A stretch of 64,000 nt of DNA, from positions 4,369 to 68,368 of the forward strand of contig JBNJDG010000001.1 of the NCBI GenBank assembly GCA_051819665.1. Reading direction: 5' to 3'. The notes beneath the pieces were generated by a model. The model was not told the origin of the DNA. It saw only the letters and a program-made list of their open reading frames with translations, and searched no databases. Positions 11,242 through 20,096 of the stretch are shown here, one piece after another. Positions within the stretch are counted from its first letter, which is position 1, and each line of letters opens with the position of its first letter. The DNA comes from Nanobdellota archaeon. GTDB lineage: Archaea; Nanobdellota; Nanobdellia; Woesearchaeales; CAZZGN01. The position numbers were made by a program, and so were the translations under genes.

Positions 11242-11781
11242 TTATTTAAAACTTTCTTCGATAAAGCTCTTCAGTTTAAGAAGGGCTTTTCCTCTATGCC
11301 CTATTTTATTCTTGAGCTCGATCTCCATCTCTGAGAAAGTATTCTCATAACCTTCTGGAACGAAAATAAGGTCGAAGCCGAATCCGTTATCCTTTCTGGG
11401 CCTGACTATCTTCCCGTTGACTTCTCCCCTGAAGATCCTTATATCATCTTTCGAGAGGGCTAAAGCGACAGTACATCCCGCTCTTGCCTCATATCCTTCG
11501 AAATGGTCTGCCAGCTTCTCCACGCCTGCTTTCTCGAGGAACTCTTTGATGTAAGGGCCGGGAAGATAATCCCAGTCTTTTATGCCGAAATCCACATCCT
11601 CCACCATGCAGGGCTTCTGCAGGATCTTATAGGATTCTTTCGCTTTATGTCTTGCGATATCTTCAGGTTCTCCCTGTATCTCGGGAACACCTTTGATATC
11701 TTCCCTTTCAATATCACCAAAGAATTCCCTGACCTCCTCAAGTTTTTTCTCATTGCCTGTTACGAATATCAGGTTTTTCAT
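11242..11781 (-). CDS. non-canonical purine NTP pyrophosphatase (Ham1/ITPase/RdgB family)
   Basis: MKNLIFVTGNEKKLEEV...FGFDLIFVPEGYENTFSEM matches the Ham1 family. Confidence 0.8.
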   Translation of the reverse strand: MKNLIFVTGNEKKLEEVREFFGDIEREDIKGVPEIQGEPEDIARHKAKESYKILQKPCMVEDVDFGIKDWDYLPGPYIKEFLEKAGVEKLADHFEGYEARAGCTVALALSKDDIRIFRGEVNGKIVRPRKDNGFGFDLIFVPEGYENTFSEMEIELKNKIGHRGKALLKLKSFIEESFK

Positions 11782-11967: not shown

Positions 11968-12897
11968 ATGGTATCAGGATATGTTAAGAAGTGCCCTGAA
12001 TGCGGGGGTATAAATCTTTTCTGGAATAAGGATAAGGGAGAGGTCATCTGTAAGGACTGCGGTCTTGTTGTTGAAGAGAAGATGATCGATTACAGCCAGG
12101 AATGGCGTGAGTTTGATTCTGAATCAAGTGAGAAGAGGAGAAGATCCGGTGCGCCGATGACTTATACACAGTATGATCAGGGTCTCGGCACAGAAGTGGG
12201 CAGGAAGGCCGATATATATCAGCTGGGCAACAGGGAGAGGAACAAGTTCTTCAGGCTCAGGAAATGGCAGTACAGGATATCCACAGCTATAGAGAGGAAC
12301 CTTAAGCTTGCTCTCGCTGAACTGAAAAGAGTGAGTTCTTACCTGAAACTTCCCAAGACCGTTGAAGAGGAGGCAGCCAGGATATACACGCTTGCCGTCC
12401 AGAGGGGCCTTGTAAGGGGAAGAAGCATGGAATCAGTTGTTGCCGGAGCACTATATGCTGCATGCAGAAGGCATGATGTCCCGAGGACTCTTGATGAGCT
12501 AAGCGAGAGCGGAGGCATTGAGAAGAAAGAGATAGGAAGGACCTATAGGTTCGTAACGAGGGAATTGGGTATAACGATCCTTCCCAGCAATCCTGCAGAT
12601 TACATCCCGAGATTCTCATCCTCACTAAAGCTTAGTGCAGAGACACAGTCTAAGAGCATTGAGATCCTGCAGAAGGCTCAGAAATCCGAGCTCACTTCCG
12701 GCAGAGGTCCTACAGGTATAGCTGCGGCTGCCCTTTATGTGAGTGCTCTCATCAATGGTGAGAAGAGGACTCAGAGGGAGGTTGCTGATGTTGCCGGCGT
12801 CACCGAGGTTACGATCAGGAACAGGTACAAAGAGCTGCTTGAGGATCTTGAGCTCGAGAAAGAGATAAAGAAATCGAAGAAAAAGAAGAAGAAATGA
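11968..12897 (+). CDS. tfb: transcription initiation factor IIB (TFB)
   Basis: N-terminal zinc ribbon CPECGGINLFWNKDKGEVICKDCG plus two cyclin-fold repeats. A long AT-rich upstream region has a TATA element. The C-terminus carries an unusual SKKKKKK tail. Confidence 0.9.
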   Translation: MVSGYVKKCPECGGINLFWNKDKGEVICKDCGLVVEEKMIDYSQEWREFDSESSEKRRRSGAPMTYTQYDQGLGTEVGRKADIYQLGNRERNKFFRLRKWQYRISTAIERNLKLALAELKRVSSYLKLPKTVEEEAARIYTLAVQRGLVRGRSMESVVAGALYAACRRHDVPRTLDELSESGGIEKKEIGRTYRFVTRELGITILPSNPADYIPRFSSSLKLSAETQSKSIEILQKAQKSELTSGRGPTGIAAAALYVSALINGEKRTQREVADVAGVTEVTIRNRYKELLEDLELEKEIKKSKKKKKK

Positions 12898-12898
12898 T

Positions 12899-13717
12899 TC
12901 ATCTCTCTTTCTCTAAAATCCTTTTTTTCTCATCAGAATTATCATAACTACCCTTATATCCTCCTATGCTGCCGTCTTCTTTTATGATCCTGTGACAAGG
13001 CACAAGGGGAAAGGGATTCTTCTTCAGTGCCTGTCCGACTGAAATAGCCGAACTTCCTGTTCTTTCAGCTATCTCTTTGTAACTGCTAGTTGTTCCTTTC
13101 TTCACCCTGCTGCATTCTATGAAAACTTTGTTCCTGAATTCCGTCGTCTCCAGAGCTGTAAGGATATTATCGATGAGATCCTTATCCTTCATATACCTTC
13201 TGGCAAGGTCTCTCATGAATCCTGTCTCCAGGAAAATACCCTTTTTCTCAAGTAAAGGTTTTATATTCCTGCTCAGGAGGAACTGTATGAACTGGTTTAT
13301 GTTCTTGGGTCTCTGACTATGGTTGCATCTCTCGAAATCTATCATCCTCGCTTCTTTGCTGATGATGATATGCTTCACTGGATGATGCATCTCCTCCTTG
13401 TTTATGCCGAGCCTGTCCATCCTATAGAGCTTCAGGAGAACCTCCCTGAGGATCTTTATGGTCCTCTTCCTGCCTGCTCCTTCAAGGAATTCACCTATGA
13501 GCTCTCCCTTTATGTATTCCTCAATGAGGTGATCCTCGCCTGCCTCATACAGCTGAGGGCCTATGCCGTGCTTGTTGAGCTTCCTGAGAAAATCTGCCTC
13601 GATCTTCAGCCTGGAGACCGCTTTGCTGTCCCTGTTCCTGACCTTCATGACAGCCTTCTTTCCCTTATATCCTGTCAGGTATACAACTCCTCTCTTTCCC
13701 TTGGCTAGGTATTCCAT
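12899..13717 (-). CDS. fusion protein: N-terminal Bud32/RIO-like small kinase-fold domain + C-terminal methylated-DNA-protein-cysteine methyltransferase (Ogt/MGMT) DNA-binding/active-site domain
   Basis: The N-terminal ~190 aa have a glycine loop GKRGVVY, a candidate VAIK-type lysine (AVMKV), a hinge LIEEYIKG and a DFG-like IDFE. The C-terminal ~85 aa have the Ogt helix-turn-helix and the PCHRII acceptor-cysteine motif (TSSYKEIAERTGSSAISVGQALKKNPFPLVPCHRII...GSIGGY). Confidence 0.6.
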   Translation of the reverse strand: MEYLAKGKRGVVYLTGYKGKKAVMKVRNRDSKAVSRLKIEADFLRKLNKHGIGPQLYEAGEDHLIEEYIKGELIGEFLEGAGRKRTIKILREVLLKLYRMDRLGINKEEMHHPVKHIIISKEARMIDFERCNHSQRPKNINQFIQFLLSRNIKPLLEKKGIFLETGFMRDLARRYMKDKDLIDNILTALETTEFRNKVFIECSRVKKGTTSSYKEIAERTGSSAISVGQALKKNPFPLVPCHRIIKEDGSIGGYKGSYDNSDEKKRILEKER

Positions 13718-14217
13718 ATCTTATACACATACAGCTCTTCGAAATCGAGTTTCATCGAGTCTAATTGTTCATGATCATAACCGTTCTCTTTAAGTATACT
13801 ATCTATCTTCTCCCTGCCGGTGAGGGAACTGAAAAGGAAGAGTATGATCCCTTTATCCTCAAGATGCTCTCTGGCTTCCCTCAGGAACCTTTCTGAAAGC
13901 TCCCATCCTTCTTTTCCTCCGTCAAGGGCTTTATCCTTCATATAGGGGTCTTCCGGAAGATATGGCGGATTGAATATTATCGTGTCGAATTTCTCTTTTA
14001 TCTCAGAGAAGAGATCCGACTCTACACTTTTCAATCCTTCTTTCCTGCATCTTTCCACAGCCTCAGGGTCAAGGTCTGCACAGAGGACTTCTTTCGCTCT
14101 TTCAGCGGATTTTGCCTGGATCCCTGTCCCTGAGCCCATGTCAAGCACTTTTCCGGATGCATAAGCATTTACGTTCCTCGCAAGCAGATCGCTGTCCTCC
14201 CTCGGTTCATATATCAT
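13705..14217 (-). CDS. class I SAM-dependent methyltransferase with NPPY motif (HemK/Mtq2-like release-factor glutamine N5-methyltransferase family)
   Basis: VLDMGSGTGI (motif I) and IIFNPPYLPEDP (NPPY). The size of about 170 aa is typical of archaeal Mtq2. The internal start MIYEPRED at 14217 is preferred. Confidence 0.6.
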   Translation of the reverse strand: MIYEPREDSDLLARNVNAYASGKVLDMGSGTGIQAKSAERAKEVLCADLDPEAVERCRKEGLKSVESDLFSEIKEKFDTIIFNPPYLPEDPYMKDKALDGGKEGWELSERFLREAREHLEDKGIILFLFSSLTGREKIDSILKENGYDHEQLDSMKLDFEELYVYKIWNT

Positions 14218-14630
14218 GGATATGTGTTTTATAGAAATATTTATATACTTTTCCGGACACACTCAATTTACATTGGAGAAACAGAGTATACTCTCCCTTG
14301 AGGATTTCCAGCAGTACATCAGGAAGCTTCCTCCTGACAAGCCCTGTTATTTCAGGATAGAGAGGGGAGTTCCGTTATGCGGTTCTGATTACAGATGTCC
14401 TTATAAGGGCGAGGATAGTTATCCTTACAGGGGCAGCAAGAAGAGAGAGTGCAGGAGGCAGACAATGCTAGAGCATAAGAGATTAATGGGTGAGAAGTGA
14501 TGATTTTTTCGATAGCTTATCTTATAACAAATTATATGAGCGGGGCAGTGCTGTCAACAGCTATACTCGTATTGTTCATAATAGCGGACCTGGCTTTCAT
14601 GGAAGCTGCAGAAACTTATCTGGAAGGCCG

Positions 14631-15080
14631 TTAGATACCCTGCATATATTCTTTTATCCTCGAGATTATATCGGGGAGGAGGTATTTCATTATCTTCTCC
14701 TGGAAGATCTCTGATAAGCTCATGAACTCGCTTATCCTGTACTTGTTCTTTATCTTCTCCACGAAGAACATATCCCTGAGTCTCTTGAGCTGTCTCCTTA
14801 TGTTCGAAGAGGCTATCCCTTTCATGGCGAGGTTTTTCTTCTCTCTCTCCTTAATGACCTTCTCCCTTATGTCCTCTGAACCGAGCATAAGCCTTTTTTC
14901 CGAAGCATCGATGAGAACCTTCAGCACATCAACTATTATATCCCTTGAATCTCCCGGCTGTAGAAGGCCGAGGCTGAGGCAGAATTTCCTTATCCTTGCT
15001 CTCCTGTCTTTAGAGTCATCCTTCTCGTATTTGCGGAAAGTCAGTTCATAGAGCGGAGTGTCTATTGATGTATTGGCCAT
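14631..15080 (-). CDS. hypothetical protein, possible winged-helix DNA-binding protein
   Basis: 149 aa with no strong family match by eye; segments resemble HTH/wing (SSNIRRQLKRLRDMFFVEK). Confidence 0.3.
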   Translation of the reverse strand: MANTSIDTPLYELTFRKYEKDDSKDRRARIRKFCLSLGLLQPGDSRDIIVDVLKVLIDASEKRLMLGSEDIREKVIKEREKKNLAMKGIASSNIRRQLKRLRDMFFVEKIKNKYRISEFMSLSEIFQEKIMKYLLPDIISRIKEYMQGI

Positions 15081-15188
15081 GATAGAAAGTTATTGGTTTT
15101 GATAATTTATAAATCTCATCCGTTGATGTCTAGTGTCCAGTGGTCTTATTGGATAAATTTATATATGAAAAAAGGAGCATTCTTCTCT

Positions 15189-15419
15189 ATGGGCCAGAAA
15201 TTCAATGTTGACGGTGACTGCTGGGAATGCGGCGAGATCACCCAGAGGGTCTGTGACGGATGCGGGAGGTTCATCTGTGATGATCATACTTATTCGATGA
15301 AATGTAAGGGAGAAGGATTAACTGTCTATGAAGTCTGCAAAGAATGTAAGAAGAAAGGGAAAGTGAAAAATCCGAAGGAAAATAGGATCAGGCGCCGTCA
15401 TGGACTTGTTGACACTTGA
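15189..15419 (+). CDS. small Cys-rich zinc-finger protein (about 76 aa)
   Basis: MGQKFNVDGDCWECGEITQRVCDGCGRFICDDH...CKGEG...CKECKKKGK preceded by AAAAAGGAG; overlaps the 3' end of ileS on the opposite strand. Confidence 0.3.
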   Translation: MGQKFNVDGDCWECGEITQRVCDGCGRFICDDHTYSMKCKGEGLTVYEVCKECKKKGKVKNPKENRIRRRHGLVDT

Positions 15420-19085: not shown

Positions 19086-20096
19086 ATGTACCAGCTTATA
19101 AGAGAAGGAAAGACTGAATCCTATGTGCCTGTAGAGAAGAAGGTATCGAAGAGACTGCCGGTCTTCTATAATCCTGTAATGAGATTCAACAGGGATATCT
19201 CAGTTTTCTTCGTTAAAAAACTACAACCTCAGCAGGTCTCTCTTCCTCTGGCCGGTACTGGTATTAGAGGCATAAGGTTCCTCAAGGAAACGGATCATGA
19301 CATGGCCGTTTATATGAACGATATATCTGAGGAGGCTGTAAAGCTTATCGGGAAGAACGCAGAGCATAATTCTGTATCGCATAATATTGTCCTCTCCAAT
19401 AAGGACGCTGATGAGTTCCTCCTTTCCATGCCGGGAGCGGATTATATTGATATCGATCCTTTCGGCTCACCTAATTTTTTCATTGATTCTGCAGTGAAGA
19501 GGCTTTCCAGGAATGGCTATCTTGCTGTTACGGCGACTGATACTTCGGCTTTATGCGGAACCCATAAGAGAGCATGCAGGAGGAAATATTGGGCAGACTC
19601 ACAGAATGATCATCAGATGCATGAGACAGGCTTGAGGATCCTGATAAGGAAAGTCCAGCTAGTAGCAGCGCAGTTTGATAAGGCCCTCTATCCTTTGATA
19701 TCCTATTCAAAGGATCATTATATGCGTGTCTTCTTCGTCTGCAGGAAGGGAAAGAAGAAGGTTGACGAGCTTCTGTGTGAACATGGTCCTCTCAATGGTC
19801 TCGGTCCTTTATGGCTCGGTACTCTCAACGATAAGAAACTTCTCCGTGATATCCTTGAAGACCTGCCTGAAGATTATCCGGACAGGAGATTCCTTGAACT
19901 TCTGGCTGAAGAATATGACACTCTTGGTATGAAAGACCTTCACATCCTGGCTAAGGAGAAGTCATTGTCCGAGCTTCCCAAGACAGATGAAGTGATCAGG
20001 AGGATAAAAGACAAAGGCTATAATGCCACAAGGACTCATCTTTCAAGGACTGCCATAAAGACTGACATGGAAGATCTGAGTGAAGTCCTTTATTGA
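19086..20096 (+). CDS. trm1: tRNA (guanine26-N2)-dimethyltransferase
   Basis: PVFYNPVMRFNRDISV..., DPFGSP and AVTATDTSALCG motifs of Trm1. Confidence 0.85.
   Translation: MYQLIREGKTESYVPVEKKVSKRLPVFYNPVMRFNRDISVFFVKKLQPQQVSLPLAGTGIRGIRFLKETDHDMAVYMNDISEEAVKLIGKNAEHNSVSHNIVLSNKDADEFLLSMPGADYIDIDPFGSPNFFIDSAVKRLSRNGYLAVTATDTSALCGTHKRACRRKYWADSQNDHQMHETGLRILIRKVQLVAAQFDKALYPLISYSKDHYMRVFFVCRKGKKKVDELLCEHGPLNGLGPLWLGTLNDKKLLRDILEDLPEDYPDRRFLELLAEEYDTLGMKDLHILAKEKSLSELPKTDEVIRRIKDKGYNATRTHLSRTAIKTDMEDLSEVLY

What the first reader, a model, noticed from the sequence alone, without database searches (positions are those of the whole stretch)
12899..13717. Unusual fusion: Bud32/RIO-like small kinase-fold domain joined to an Ogt (O6-alkylguanine-DNA alkyltransferase) active-site domain
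The C-terminal ~85 aa carry the complete Ogt DNA-binding helix-turn-helix and the PCHRII acceptor cysteine (…NPFPLVPCHRIIKEDGSIGGY…). The N-terminal ~190 aa instead resemble an atypical small protein kinase (COG2112/Bud32-like). They have a Gly-loop GKRGVVY, a lysine in AVMKV, a hinge LIEEYIKG and IDFE in place of DFG. The catalytic-loop region (GINKEEMHH) does not have the canonical HxD, so it may be a pseudokinase or use a non-canonical mechanism. The normal Ogt N-terminal domain is absent. The gene is convergent with, and 1 bp away from, the TFB gene.
Basis: partly seen in the sequence, partly recalled or inferred. Interest (0 to 1): 0.5.

Follow-up and report, generated by a model that had tools for sequence, protein, structure and literature searches.

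The report
ArkI-type RNA kinase fused to Ogt
A DPANN archaeon encodes one protein joining an ArkI-family RNA (tRNA) kinase to the cysteine-bearing half of the DNA-repair enzyme Ogt; the same two modules, plus a release-factor methyltransferase, sit side by side or fused in many related archaea, which suggests they work together, though nobody has tested how.

The parts
12899..13717 (-). Whole ORF, 272 aa plus stop: ArkI-family kinase domain fused to Ogt C-terminal domain
13148..13717 (-). Kinase domain, aa 1-190 (ArkI/COG2112 family)
13682..13705 (-). P-loop A5-K-G-K-R-G-V-V12. K6/G7 align with TkArkI K32/G33, which are needed for activity.
13643..13645 (-). Lys25 (VMKV), the beta3 ATP-binding lysine, aligned with TkArkI K51
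13370..13405 (-). Catalytic loop I105-N-K-E-E-M-H-H-P-V-K-H116. K107/E109/K115 align with TkArkI H130/Q132/K137. Same loop type as G. acetivorans Ark1 (QKEEMNHPDRH).
13331..13342 (-). Metal-binding loop I-D127-F-E (the DFE triplet typical of ArkI, in place of DFG)
13187..13195 (-). Y175-M-K177, the counterpart of the ArkI alpha7 YKR RNA-binding motif (YK[KRNQ] in most relatives)
12899..13147 (-). Ogt C-terminal domain, aa 191-272 plus stop codon
13034..13048 (-). A224-I-S-V-G228, start of the recognition helix. The arginine finger (R in 46 of 52 aligned module and reference Ogt sequences) is missing here.
12989..13000 (-). P240-C241-H242-R243, the alkyl-acceptor cysteine motif
13705..14262 (-). 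HemK2/MTQ2-family methyltransferase directly upstream. Its stop overlaps the kinase ATG by 13 nt. The likely true start is the ATG at 14217 (MIYEPREDS, as in relatives). It is fused to the kinase in most related genomes.
   Evidence: NF011529 170 bits (cut-off 162) and TIGR00537 124 bits (cut-off 87)..
11968..12897 (+). TFB (transcription factor B), convergent, with its stop 1 nt from the fusion's stop. It is the conserved downstream neighbour of the module.

Best explanation
The gene encodes a bifunctional enzyme. It arose by fusing two neighbouring genes of a conserved Woesearchaeota/Nanoarchaeia operon: HemK2/MTQ2 methyltransferase, then an ArkI-like kinase, then a short Ogt-C protein. SHOWN: aa 1-190 are an ArkI/COG2112-family kinase with all ATP- and metal-binding residues present. 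Its catalytic loop is the KEE type, also seen in the ATP-bound G. acetivorans Ark1 crystal structure. aa 191-272 are an Ogt C-domain with HTH, Asn hinge, Tyr213, Cys241-His-Arg and Glu271. The three modules are adjacent, or fused in several combinations, in many genomes, and their catalytic motifs are conserved. INFERRED: the kinase half uses ATP to phosphorylate an RNA 2'-OH, most likely U47 of tRNA as ArkI does. Glu109 sits where eukaryotic-type protein kinases have the catalytic Asp. The Ogt half is a single-turnover alkyl acceptor that takes an O6-alkyl group from guanine onto Cys241. The kinase domain replaces the missing Ogt N-domain as the structural partner that caps and stabilises the C-domain. 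Repeated independent fusions suggest that the kinase, the Ogt-C protein and HemK2 act as one physical unit on the translation and nucleic-acid maintenance machinery. In the window protein specifically, loss of the Arg finger predicts weak base flipping on duplex DNA.
For: Domain identity: sequence; structure. Residues that mutagenesis showed TkArkI needs (PMC9095486) are present: K6/G7, K25, E40, K115, D127, N139, Y175. The KxE[MLF]xxPxK loop is invariant in all 24 fused cluster representatives, and the loop is conserved in the standalone and HemK2-fused homologues aligned and in GaArk1 (P0127). The Ogt cysteine is kept in 24/24 fused representatives and in all 49 aligned module Ogt sequences (48 of 49 keep P-C-H; L072 reads SCHR). 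Conserved module: among 81 loci, HemK2 is present in 70 of 80 informative loci, and Ogt-C is fused or downstream in 38 of 62 loci with at least 2.5 kb of flank. Architecture census of 150 cluster representatives: 69 HemK2-Kin, 57 Kin, 19 Kin-Ogt, 5 HemK2-Kin-Ogt. Independent fusions: the fused forms are scattered in the kinase and Ogt trees, their nearest relatives are mostly unfused, and their linkers of 0-55 aa are unrelated in sequence. High pTM values suggest fixed domain packing: 0.86 for the two-domain model and 0.77 for the three-domain natural fusion. Precedent: the Ogt N-domain is not strictly required, and C-domain-only fusions are active (AGT-EndoV, AGT-2; PMC10779285).
Against: No activity has been measured for any member of this DPANN clade. 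TkArkI H130 and Q132, both important for activity, are K and E here, so substrate or chemistry may differ. I found no publication for the G. acetivorans 'RNA kinase Ark1' structures. The window protein lacks the Arg finger, has T162-equivalent replaced by N141, has YMK instead of YKR, lacks the C-terminal extension of its relatives' Ogt-C, and has lower model confidence in aa 230-272. Its Ogt half may therefore be drifting. Loci without Ogt-C mostly also lack TFB (21 of 24), so part of the linkage may be plain synteny. Fusion of overlapping neighbour genes needs only a 1-nt indel and could be neutral. The trees have no support values. pTM is only an indirect proxy for an interface; no PAE or coordinates were available.
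Confidence: 0.55

Rival explanations
1. Neutral fusion of independent housekeeping genes. The kinase modifies tRNA and the Ogt half repairs DNA, with no functional or physical coupling. The genes merely sit in a conserved, tightly packed syntenic block of a compact DPANN genome, where overlapping stop and start codons are easily merged.
For: Adjacent module genes commonly overlap, and in the window HemK2 and the kinase overlap by 13 nt, so a 1-nt indel converts neighbours into fusions. The block extends to housekeeping genes IleRS and TFB in the window, L001 and L002. Ogt-C and TFB are lost together in 21 of 24 loci. Only 61% of loci with full flanks have Ogt-C nearby. In Geoglobus and another Archaeoglobi-type genome the homologous kinase has unrelated neighbours.
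Against: At least 4 junctions of different length and sequence arose independently and were retained, with the catalytic residues of both halves intact. The order is conserved across lineages only about 40-50% identical in the kinase. High pTM values for the fused models suggest a defined interface.
Confidence: 0.3
2. The Ogt module is not a DNA-repair enzyme here. It works for the kinase/HemK2 unit in one of three ways: as an RNA/tRNA-binding or base-flipping module, as an O6-alkylguanine repair activity on RNA, or as an alkylation sensor whose irreversible Cys alkylation destabilises and shuts down the attached kinase (and the methyltransferase in triple fusions).
For: It is repeatedly fused to an RNA kinase rather than to DNA-repair enzymes. 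The neighbourhood is rich in translation and tRNA genes: IleRS, Trm1, aEF-1alpha and HemK2. The duplex-DNA base-flipping Arg finger is dispensable in some fused lineages: Q in 2 and absent in 2 of 24. The known instability of alkylated Ogt proteins is from my own knowledge and was not tested here.
Against: 20 of 24 fused and nearly all separate module Ogt-C proteins keep the full DNA-type toolkit (Tyr, Arg finger, Asn hinge, PCHR, Glu), as in canonical DNA alkyltransferases. No alkyltransferase is known to act on RNA physiologically. No direct evidence was obtained here.
Confidence: 0.12
3. One reading: a Bud32/RIO-like protein kinase or pseudokinase domain that regulates, or is regulated by, the Ogt domain through protein phosphorylation or nucleotide binding only.
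Against: Identity to RIO/Bud32 is 15-17%, against 29-31% to Ark1/ArkI. The Bud32 models score 16-17 bits against cut-offs of 246-372. The loop that looked degenerate is invariant in the family and occurs in an ATP-bound solved enzyme. All nucleotide- and metal-binding residues are kept, which argues against a pseudokinase.
Confidence: 0.05
4. The module is a mobile or defence-type system related to MADS (methylation-associated defence), which pairs a HemK-like methyltransferase with a kinase.
For: HemK2 matches PADLOC mad2 at E=4.6e-19, and the triple fusion matches at 2.8e-23. The kinase has faint hits to the NCBIfam MADS6 kinase (E=1.8e-4) and to PD-T4-6 (E=6e-4).
Against: The mad2 match covers only the methyltransferase core (profile positions 273-427 of 492) at 66.6 bits. 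The same protein scores 170 bits, above the cut-off, on the archaeal HemK2/MTQ2 model. MADS6 gives 20 bits against a cut-off of 460. The module lies in a fixed housekeeping context (IleRS, TFB) across diverse genomes, with 312 confirmed relatives in species-representative genomes. No other defence genes are adjacent.
Confidence: 0.02
5. The fusion in this window is an assembly or sequencing artefact: a 1-nt indel in a MAG merged separate kinase and Ogt-C genes.
For: This exact protein is known from a single contig (P0001: 1 member, 1 contig). Its closest kinase relatives in the NJ tree have a separate Ogt-C. A 1-nt change would be enough.
Against: There is no homopolymer or frame anomaly at the junction, and the join is seamless from the kinase tail into the first Ogt helix. 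The same architecture occurs in 23 other 50%-identity clusters from independent assemblies.
Confidence: 0.04

Closest known systems
ArkI / Ark1 archaeal RNA kinase (COG2112, 'AQ578' family): T. kodakarensis ArkI (PDB 7vnx; Ohira et al. 2022, PMC9095486) and G. acetivorans Ark1 (PDB 8yv4/8yv5)
   Different: TkArkI's HGQ triplet is KEE here. Thr162 is replaced by Asn, and YKR by YMK. The protein is shorter than TkArkI and carries an Ogt C-domain at its C-terminus. It is operon-linked or fused to HemK2, and comes from presumably mesophilic DPANN archaea. ArkI in Sulfurisphaera is next to the CCA-adding enzyme, and the Geoglobus gene has unrelated neighbours.
Ogt/MGMT O6-alkylguanine-DNA alkyltransferases (PF01035; e.g. 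M. jannaschii 2g7h, S. tokodaii 1wrj, P. kodakaraensis 1mgt)
   Different: No N-terminal domain (PF02870). No arginine finger in the window protein. Attached to a kinase.
C-domain-only alkyltransferase fusions: Ferroplasma AGT-EndoV and C. elegans AGT-2 (reviewed in PMC10779285)
   Same: The Ogt C-domain, with its active cysteine, is joined to an unrelated functional domain that replaces the N-domain.
   Different: The partners there are a DNA endonuclease or a histone-like domain, i.e. a DNA-centred logic. Here the partner is an RNA kinase and, in triple fusions, also a protein-glutamine methyltransferase.
ATL (alkyltransferase-like) proteins
   Same: Single-domain, N-domain-less relatives of the Ogt C-domain. 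Similar in size to the module's free-standing Ogt-C proteins of about 100-130 aa.
   Different: ATLs replace the cysteine, usually with Trp, and are non-catalytic damage flags. The module proteins and this fusion keep the cysteine.
Bud32/PRPK and RIO kinases, including the Kae1-Bud32 fusion of M. jannaschii (3en9)
   Same: Small atypical archaeal kinases lacking the activation segment. Bud32 also occurs fused to a tRNA-modification enzyme.
   Different: Only 15-17% identity. The family profile models score far below threshold. The catalytic loop is different (HGD...N against KEE...K).

Membership tests
ArkI / COG2112 RNA kinase family | Significant sequence similarity to experimentally characterised or solved members | tested here: met
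   phmmer against PDB: 8yv4/8yv5 E=8e-13; 7vnx TkArkI E=4e-10 over aa 2-179
ArkI / COG2112 RNA kinase family | Minimal eukaryotic-type kinase fold, closest in structure to ArkI | tested here: met
ArkI / COG2112 RNA kinase family | ATP-site residues needed for TkArkI activity (K32, G33, K51, E65) | tested here: met
   K6, G7, K25, E40 align with them and are invariant in alignment A1
ArkI / COG2112 RNA kinase family | TkArkI-type catalytic loop H130-G-Q132...K137 | tested here: not met
   The loop is K107-E-E109...K115. Only the Lys is kept.
ArkI / COG2112 RNA kinase family | Alternative Ark1-type loop K-E-E-M-x-H-P-x-[KR]-H, as in G. acetivorans Ark1 | tested here: met
   INKEEMHHPVKH against IQKEEMNHPDRH. 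K, E, P and K are invariant in 24/24 fused representatives.
ArkI / COG2112 RNA kinase family | DFE metal-binding triplet (D149) | tested here: met
   I-D127-F-E, invariant
ArkI / COG2112 RNA kinase family | Subdomain IX N160/T162 and the alpha7 YKR motif | tested here: inconclusive
   N139 is kept. The T162 position is N141 (Thr in most relatives). YKR is Y175-M-K177 (YK[KRNQ] in relatives).
ArkI / COG2112 RNA kinase family | ATP-dependent 2'-phosphorylation of tRNA U47 | not testable with these tools
   A tRNA survey of the fetched loci gave only 3 class-I tRNAs (one with U47), which is uninformative
Ogt/MGMT alkyltransferase (PF01035, TIGR00589) | C-terminal DNA-binding/active-site domain scoring above the curated threshold | tested here: met
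   PF01035 70 bits (cut-off 27); TIGR00589 70.3 bits (cut-off 46.4)
Ogt/MGMT alkyltransferase (PF01035, TIGR00589) | [IV]PCHR[IV][IV] motif with the nucleophilic cysteine | tested here: met
   V-P-C241-H-R-I-I
Ogt/MGMT alkyltransferase (PF01035, TIGR00589) | Base-flip Tyr, Asn hinge, and the Glu of the Glu-His-water-Cys network | tested here: met
   Y213, N234 and E271 align with the conserved columns
Ogt/MGMT alkyltransferase (PF01035, TIGR00589) | Arginine finger at the start of the recognition helix | tested here: not met
   The window has SSAI-SVG. The column is R in 46 of 52 sequences, Q in 4 and a gap in 2. R is present in 20 of 24 fused representatives.
Ogt/MGMT alkyltransferase (PF01035, TIGR00589) | Two-domain architecture with the N-terminal domain (PF02870) | tested here: not met
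   No PF02870 hit at E<=1. aa 1-190 are a kinase. The full-length MGMT equivalog models score 56-60 bits against cut-offs of 164-250. The review states that the N-domain is not strictly required.
Ogt/MGMT alkyltransferase (PF01035, TIGR00589) | Stoichiometric alkyl transfer from O6-alkylguanine | not testable with these tools
   Needs biochemistry
ATL (alkyltransferase-like) | Active-site Cys replaced (usually by Trp); no alkyl transfer | tested here: not met
   Cys241 is present, and Cys is kept in 24/24 fused representatives
Bud32 / RIO atypical protein kinases | Family profile match above threshold | tested here: not met
HemK2/MTQ2 methyltransferase (the upstream partner gene) | Equivalog-level profile match and NPPY motif | tested here: met
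   NF011529 170.2 bits (cut-off 162); TIGR00537 123.9 bits (cut-off 87). FNPPYLP is in the ORF.
MADS defence system | mad2 methyltransferase and mad6 kinase matches at family level, with the other mad genes adjacent | tested here: not met
   mad2 gives only a core-domain match at 66.6 bits. MADS6 gives 20.1 bits against a cut-off of 460. Neighbours are housekeeping genes.

The most novel reading that the evidence does not exclude
HemK2/MTQ2, the ArkI-like kinase and the cysteine-bearing Ogt-C protein form one complex in Woesearchaeota/Nanoarchaeia. In it, the alkyltransferase module acts on RNA or the translation apparatus rather than on genomic DNA. It either repairs O6-alkylguanine in tRNA/rRNA, or serves as an irreversible alkylation sensor that switches off tRNA 2'-phosphorylation and release-factor methylation when the cell is alkylated.
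Probability: 0.12. Interest if true: 0.8.

Novelty: new variant of a known kind. Interest (0 to 1): 0.55.

Why it matters
Both halves belong to well-studied families, but the combination is not described in the papers I could search. ArkI was recognised as an RNA kinase only in 2022 and is discussed mainly as a thermophile adaptation. Here a large, mostly non-thermophilic DPANN radiation keeps a distinct ArkI subfamily. It is almost always welded or operon-linked to the release-factor methyltransferase HemK2, and often to a minimal Ogt. If the linkage is functional, it ties internal RNA phosphorylation, translation-termination factor methylation and alkylation-damage handling into one unit. 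It would also be a natural test of whether an Ogt C-domain can work with a non-cognate scaffold, or on RNA. Practically, the free-standing Ogt-C proteins of about 100 aa and the fusions are natural minimal 'SNAP-tag-like' modules. If the linkage is only synteny, the finding is a tidy annotation correction: the deposited name 'methylated-DNA--protein-cysteine methyltransferase' misses two thirds of the protein.

Tried and rejected
1. A divergent Ogt N-domain in aa 1-190: rejected. There is no PF02870 hit. The long NCBIfam MGMT alignments over aa 126-269 score lower than the C-domain model alone. The structure is a kinase.
2. A frameshift or stop splitting the ORF: rejected.
3. Searching with the Ogt half alone in the word-indexed database returned only 6 proteins: short 101-106-aa Ogt-C-only forms and 154-159-aa full-length Ogt. 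That is too few to place the domain. My own HMM scan of the 80 loci replaced it.
4. Alignment A2 was too diverse for the search for related loci. A1 worked.
5. U47 frequency in DPANN tRNAs: only 3 class-I tRNAs lie on the fetched loci and the window has one tRNA-Ser, so the check is uninformative.
6. A second Ogt, kinase or HemK2 copy in the window: none. The rest of the genome is not available.
8. Literature: nothing found on 8yv4/8yv5. Nothing on COG2112/AQ578 fusions. Nothing linking ArkI, HemK, Mtq2 and DPANN. The MADS search returned only plant MADS-box papers.
9. A defence-system reading was considered because of the mad2 hit and judged unlikely.
10. HemK2 or Ogt linkage outside DPANN: absent in the two Archaeoglobi-type contexts examined. 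This is a small sample.

Full report
OBSERVATION. All quoted motifs are present. Pfam PF01035, the Ogt DNA-binding/active-site domain, matches aa 193-272 at E=1.6e-19, and TIGR00589 matches at 1.1e-19. No Ogt N-terminal domain model matches. TFB (11968..12897, +) is convergent, and its stop lies 1 nt from the ORF's stop codon. At the DNA level the kinase tail runs straight into the first Ogt helix in one frame. The other two frames are closed, and there is no homopolymer at the junction. The identical protein is deposited from a 73-kb Nanobdellota (DPANN) MAG contig under the name 'methylated-DNA--[protein]-cysteine S-methyltransferase'.

- Foldseek: target-normalised TM 0.80-0.86 for Ark1 and 0.72 for TkArkI.

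ArkI is the COG2112/'AQ578' family. Ohira et al. 2022 showed it to be the ATP-dependent kinase that makes 2'-phosphouridine at position 47 of tRNA. They described its non-canonical motifs, HGQ for HRD and DFE for DFG, and a C-terminal YKR motif (PMC9095486). Up47 also occurs in mesophiles (PMC10159004).

I mapped the residues whose mutation cripples TkArkI onto this protein:
- Kept: K32/G33 = K6/G7; K51 = K25; E65 = E40; K137 = K115; D149 = D127; N160 = N139; Y200 = Y175.
- Changed: H130-G-Q132 is K107-E-E109; T162 is N141; K201-R202 is M176-K177.

The KEE loop is not decay. G. acetivorans Ark1 has the same loop (IQKEEMNHPDRH). K-x-E-[MLF]-x-x-P-x-K is invariant in all 24 fused cluster representatives and is conserved in the standalone and HemK2-fused homologues examined. 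By the paper's HRD/HGQ equivalence, Glu109 occupies the position of the protein-kinase catalytic Asp; this step is my inference.

THE WIDER PICTURE. Homologue searches show three recurrent forms of the kinase, nearly all from Woesearchaeota/Nanoarchaeia MAGs: alone (about 190-210 aa), fused behind a HemK2/MTQ2 methyltransferase (about 385 aa), or fused to Ogt.

In the window, the gene directly upstream (13705..14217/14262, -) is a HemK2/MTQ2 methyltransferase above the NCBIfam equivalog cut-off (170 bits). Its stop overlaps the kinase ATG by 13 nt.

I fetched 80 loci from species-representative genomes, out of 312 confirmed relatives. I scanned them with my own HMMs for the three modules and TFB. 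A conserved module emerges: HemK2, then kinase, then a short Ogt-C-only gene (about 100-130 aa, no N-domain), then convergent TFB. The arrangements among 81 loci, including the window, are:
- 28 HemK2-Kin fusion plus a separate Ogt-C (20 directly adjacent).
- 16 HemK2-Kin fusion with no Ogt-C in the flank.
- 8 with all three genes separate.
- 7 Kin-Ogt fused.
- 3 HemK2-Kin-Ogt triple fusions.
- The remaining 19 have a separate kinase gene and either no Ogt-C or no HemK2 within the fetched flank.

Correcting for truncated contigs, HemK2 accompanies the kinase in 70 of 80 loci. Ogt-C is present in 38 of 62 loci with at least 2.5 kb of downstream flank.

The exhaustive search of 1.84 billion cluster representatives gives the same picture. 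Of the best 150 clusters, 69 are HemK2-Kin, 57 Kin, 19 Kin-Ogt and 5 triple fusions. The synteny with IleRS and TFB is shared by the window and by the loci of two other fusions.

INDEPENDENT FUSIONS. In NJ trees of the kinase and Ogt domains (no support values), the fused forms are scattered and their nearest relatives are mostly unfused. The window's kinase groups with HemK2-Kin lineages that have a separate Ogt-C. Junction linkers range from 0 to about 55 aa and are unrelated in sequence. Only L040 and L051 share a junction. I count at least 4 events and possibly 7-8.

In the fused representatives the catalytic residues of both halves are kept. The kinase loop and beta3 Lys are present in 24/24. 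The Ogt Cys is present in 24/24. The Arg finger is R in 20, Q in 2 and absent in 2.

AlphaFold2 gives pTM 0.86 for the two-domain window protein. It gives pTM 0.77 (pLDDT 93.1) for the natural 461-aa triple fusion, where the last methyltransferase strand runs directly into the first kinase strand. This is compatible with fixed packing, but I had no PAE or coordinates to check.

LIMITS OF THE LINKAGE. Loci lacking Ogt-C usually lack TFB too (21 of 24), so part of the association is block synteny. In Geoglobus and a second Archaeoglobi-type genome, the KEE-loop Ark1 has unrelated neighbours, so on this small sample the module looks DPANN-specific. The window holds no second Ogt, kinase or HemK2. 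Its neighbourhood is housekeeping: aEF-1alpha, RNR, Ham1, TFB, IleRS and Trm1. HemK2's PADLOC 'mad2' hit (E=4.6e-19) covers only the methyltransferase core and is far weaker than its MTQ2 match, so a defence reading is unlikely.

MECHANISM. I commit to the following, at confidence about 0.55. The gene encodes a bifunctional enzyme derived from operon neighbours.
- Shown: the domain identities, intact motifs, conserved module and repeated fusion.
- Inferred: the kinase half phosphorylates an RNA 2'-OH, most likely tRNA U47. The Ogt half is a single-turnover alkyl acceptor at Cys241. The kinase domain substitutes for the missing N-domain as scaffold. The three modules act as a physical unit.
- For the window protein itself, loss of the Arg finger predicts poor base flipping on duplex DNA.

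The rivals are: a neutral fusion of independent housekeeping genes (0.30); an Ogt module repurposed for RNA or for alkylation sensing (0.12); a protein kinase or pseudokinase of Bud32/RIO type (0.05); an assembly artefact (0.04); and a MADS-like defence system (0.02).

NOVELTY AND SCORE. Both domains are known kinds, and C-domain-only Ogt fusions have precedent. I found no description of the ArkI-Ogt pairing, or of the HemK2-ArkI-Ogt module behind it. I rate it a new variant of a known kind, interest 0.55. It offers a specialist a clear, testable association, but no function has been demonstrated and a neutral explanation remains open.

Noticed in passing
window 13705..14262 (-) and loci L004-L082: The HemK2/MTQ2 release-factor methyltransferase is fused N-terminally to the ArkI-like kinase in most Woesearchaeota/Nanoarchaeia (69 of 150 cluster representatives). 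In the window the two are separate genes overlapping by 13 nt in different frames. I found no paper describing this fusion.
   Followed up: partly
window 13708..14217 (-); P0002 aa 22-141: The HemK2 partner matches the PADLOC 'mad2' methyltransferase model of the MADS defence system (E=4.6e-19; triple fusion 2.8e-23), and the kinase faintly matches the MADS6 kinase model. This is probably domain-level homology, but MADS also pairs a HemK-like methyltransferase with a kinase.
   Followed up: partly
window 13034..13048 (-), aa 224-228: The window's Ogt domain lacks the arginine finger that 46 of 52 aligned sequences keep. It also lacks the C-terminal extension found after the conserved Glu in its relatives. 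Only the L040/P0181 type shares the Arg loss.
   Followed up: partly
window 14631..15080 (-): A 149-aa gene with no Pfam family lies between HemK2 and IleRS. A 154-aa gene occupies the same position in locus L001. It has a faint PADLOC CARF_HEPN hit (E=1.2e-3), probably not meaningful.
   Followed up: no
window 15126..15419 (+): A small Cys-rich ORF (CxxC...CxxC...CxxC, zinc-ribbon-like) with no Pfam hit overlaps the start of IleRS on the opposite strand. It may or may not be a real gene.
   Followed up: no
L034 5335..6564: A 410-aa stop-to-stop ORF has the kinase at aa 223-405, but its N-terminal part gives no HemK2 hit. It may be a different N-terminal partner, or simply open upstream sequence.
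   Followed up: no
loci L004, L006, L014, L017, L019 and others (record titles): Many source records are titled 'uncultured Methanosarcinales archaeon', although their module, synteny and closest relatives are Woesearchaeota/Nanoarchaeia. The MAG taxonomy labels are probably wrong.
   Followed up: no
window 11968..12897 (+): TFB ends in a lysine-rich tail (KKSKKKKKK). It is the conserved convergent neighbour of the Ogt-C gene across loci. Ogt-C and TFB tend to be present or absent together downstream of the kinase (21 of 24 loci without Ogt-C also lack TFB).
   Followed up: partly
window 11242..11781 (-), 19086..20096 (+): A Ham1/ITPase (non-canonical purine NTP clean-up) and a Trm1 tRNA m2,2G methyltransferase lie within 6 kb of the module, alongside IleRS and aEF-1alpha. 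The neighbourhood is rich in nucleic-acid hygiene and tRNA genes.
   Followed up: no
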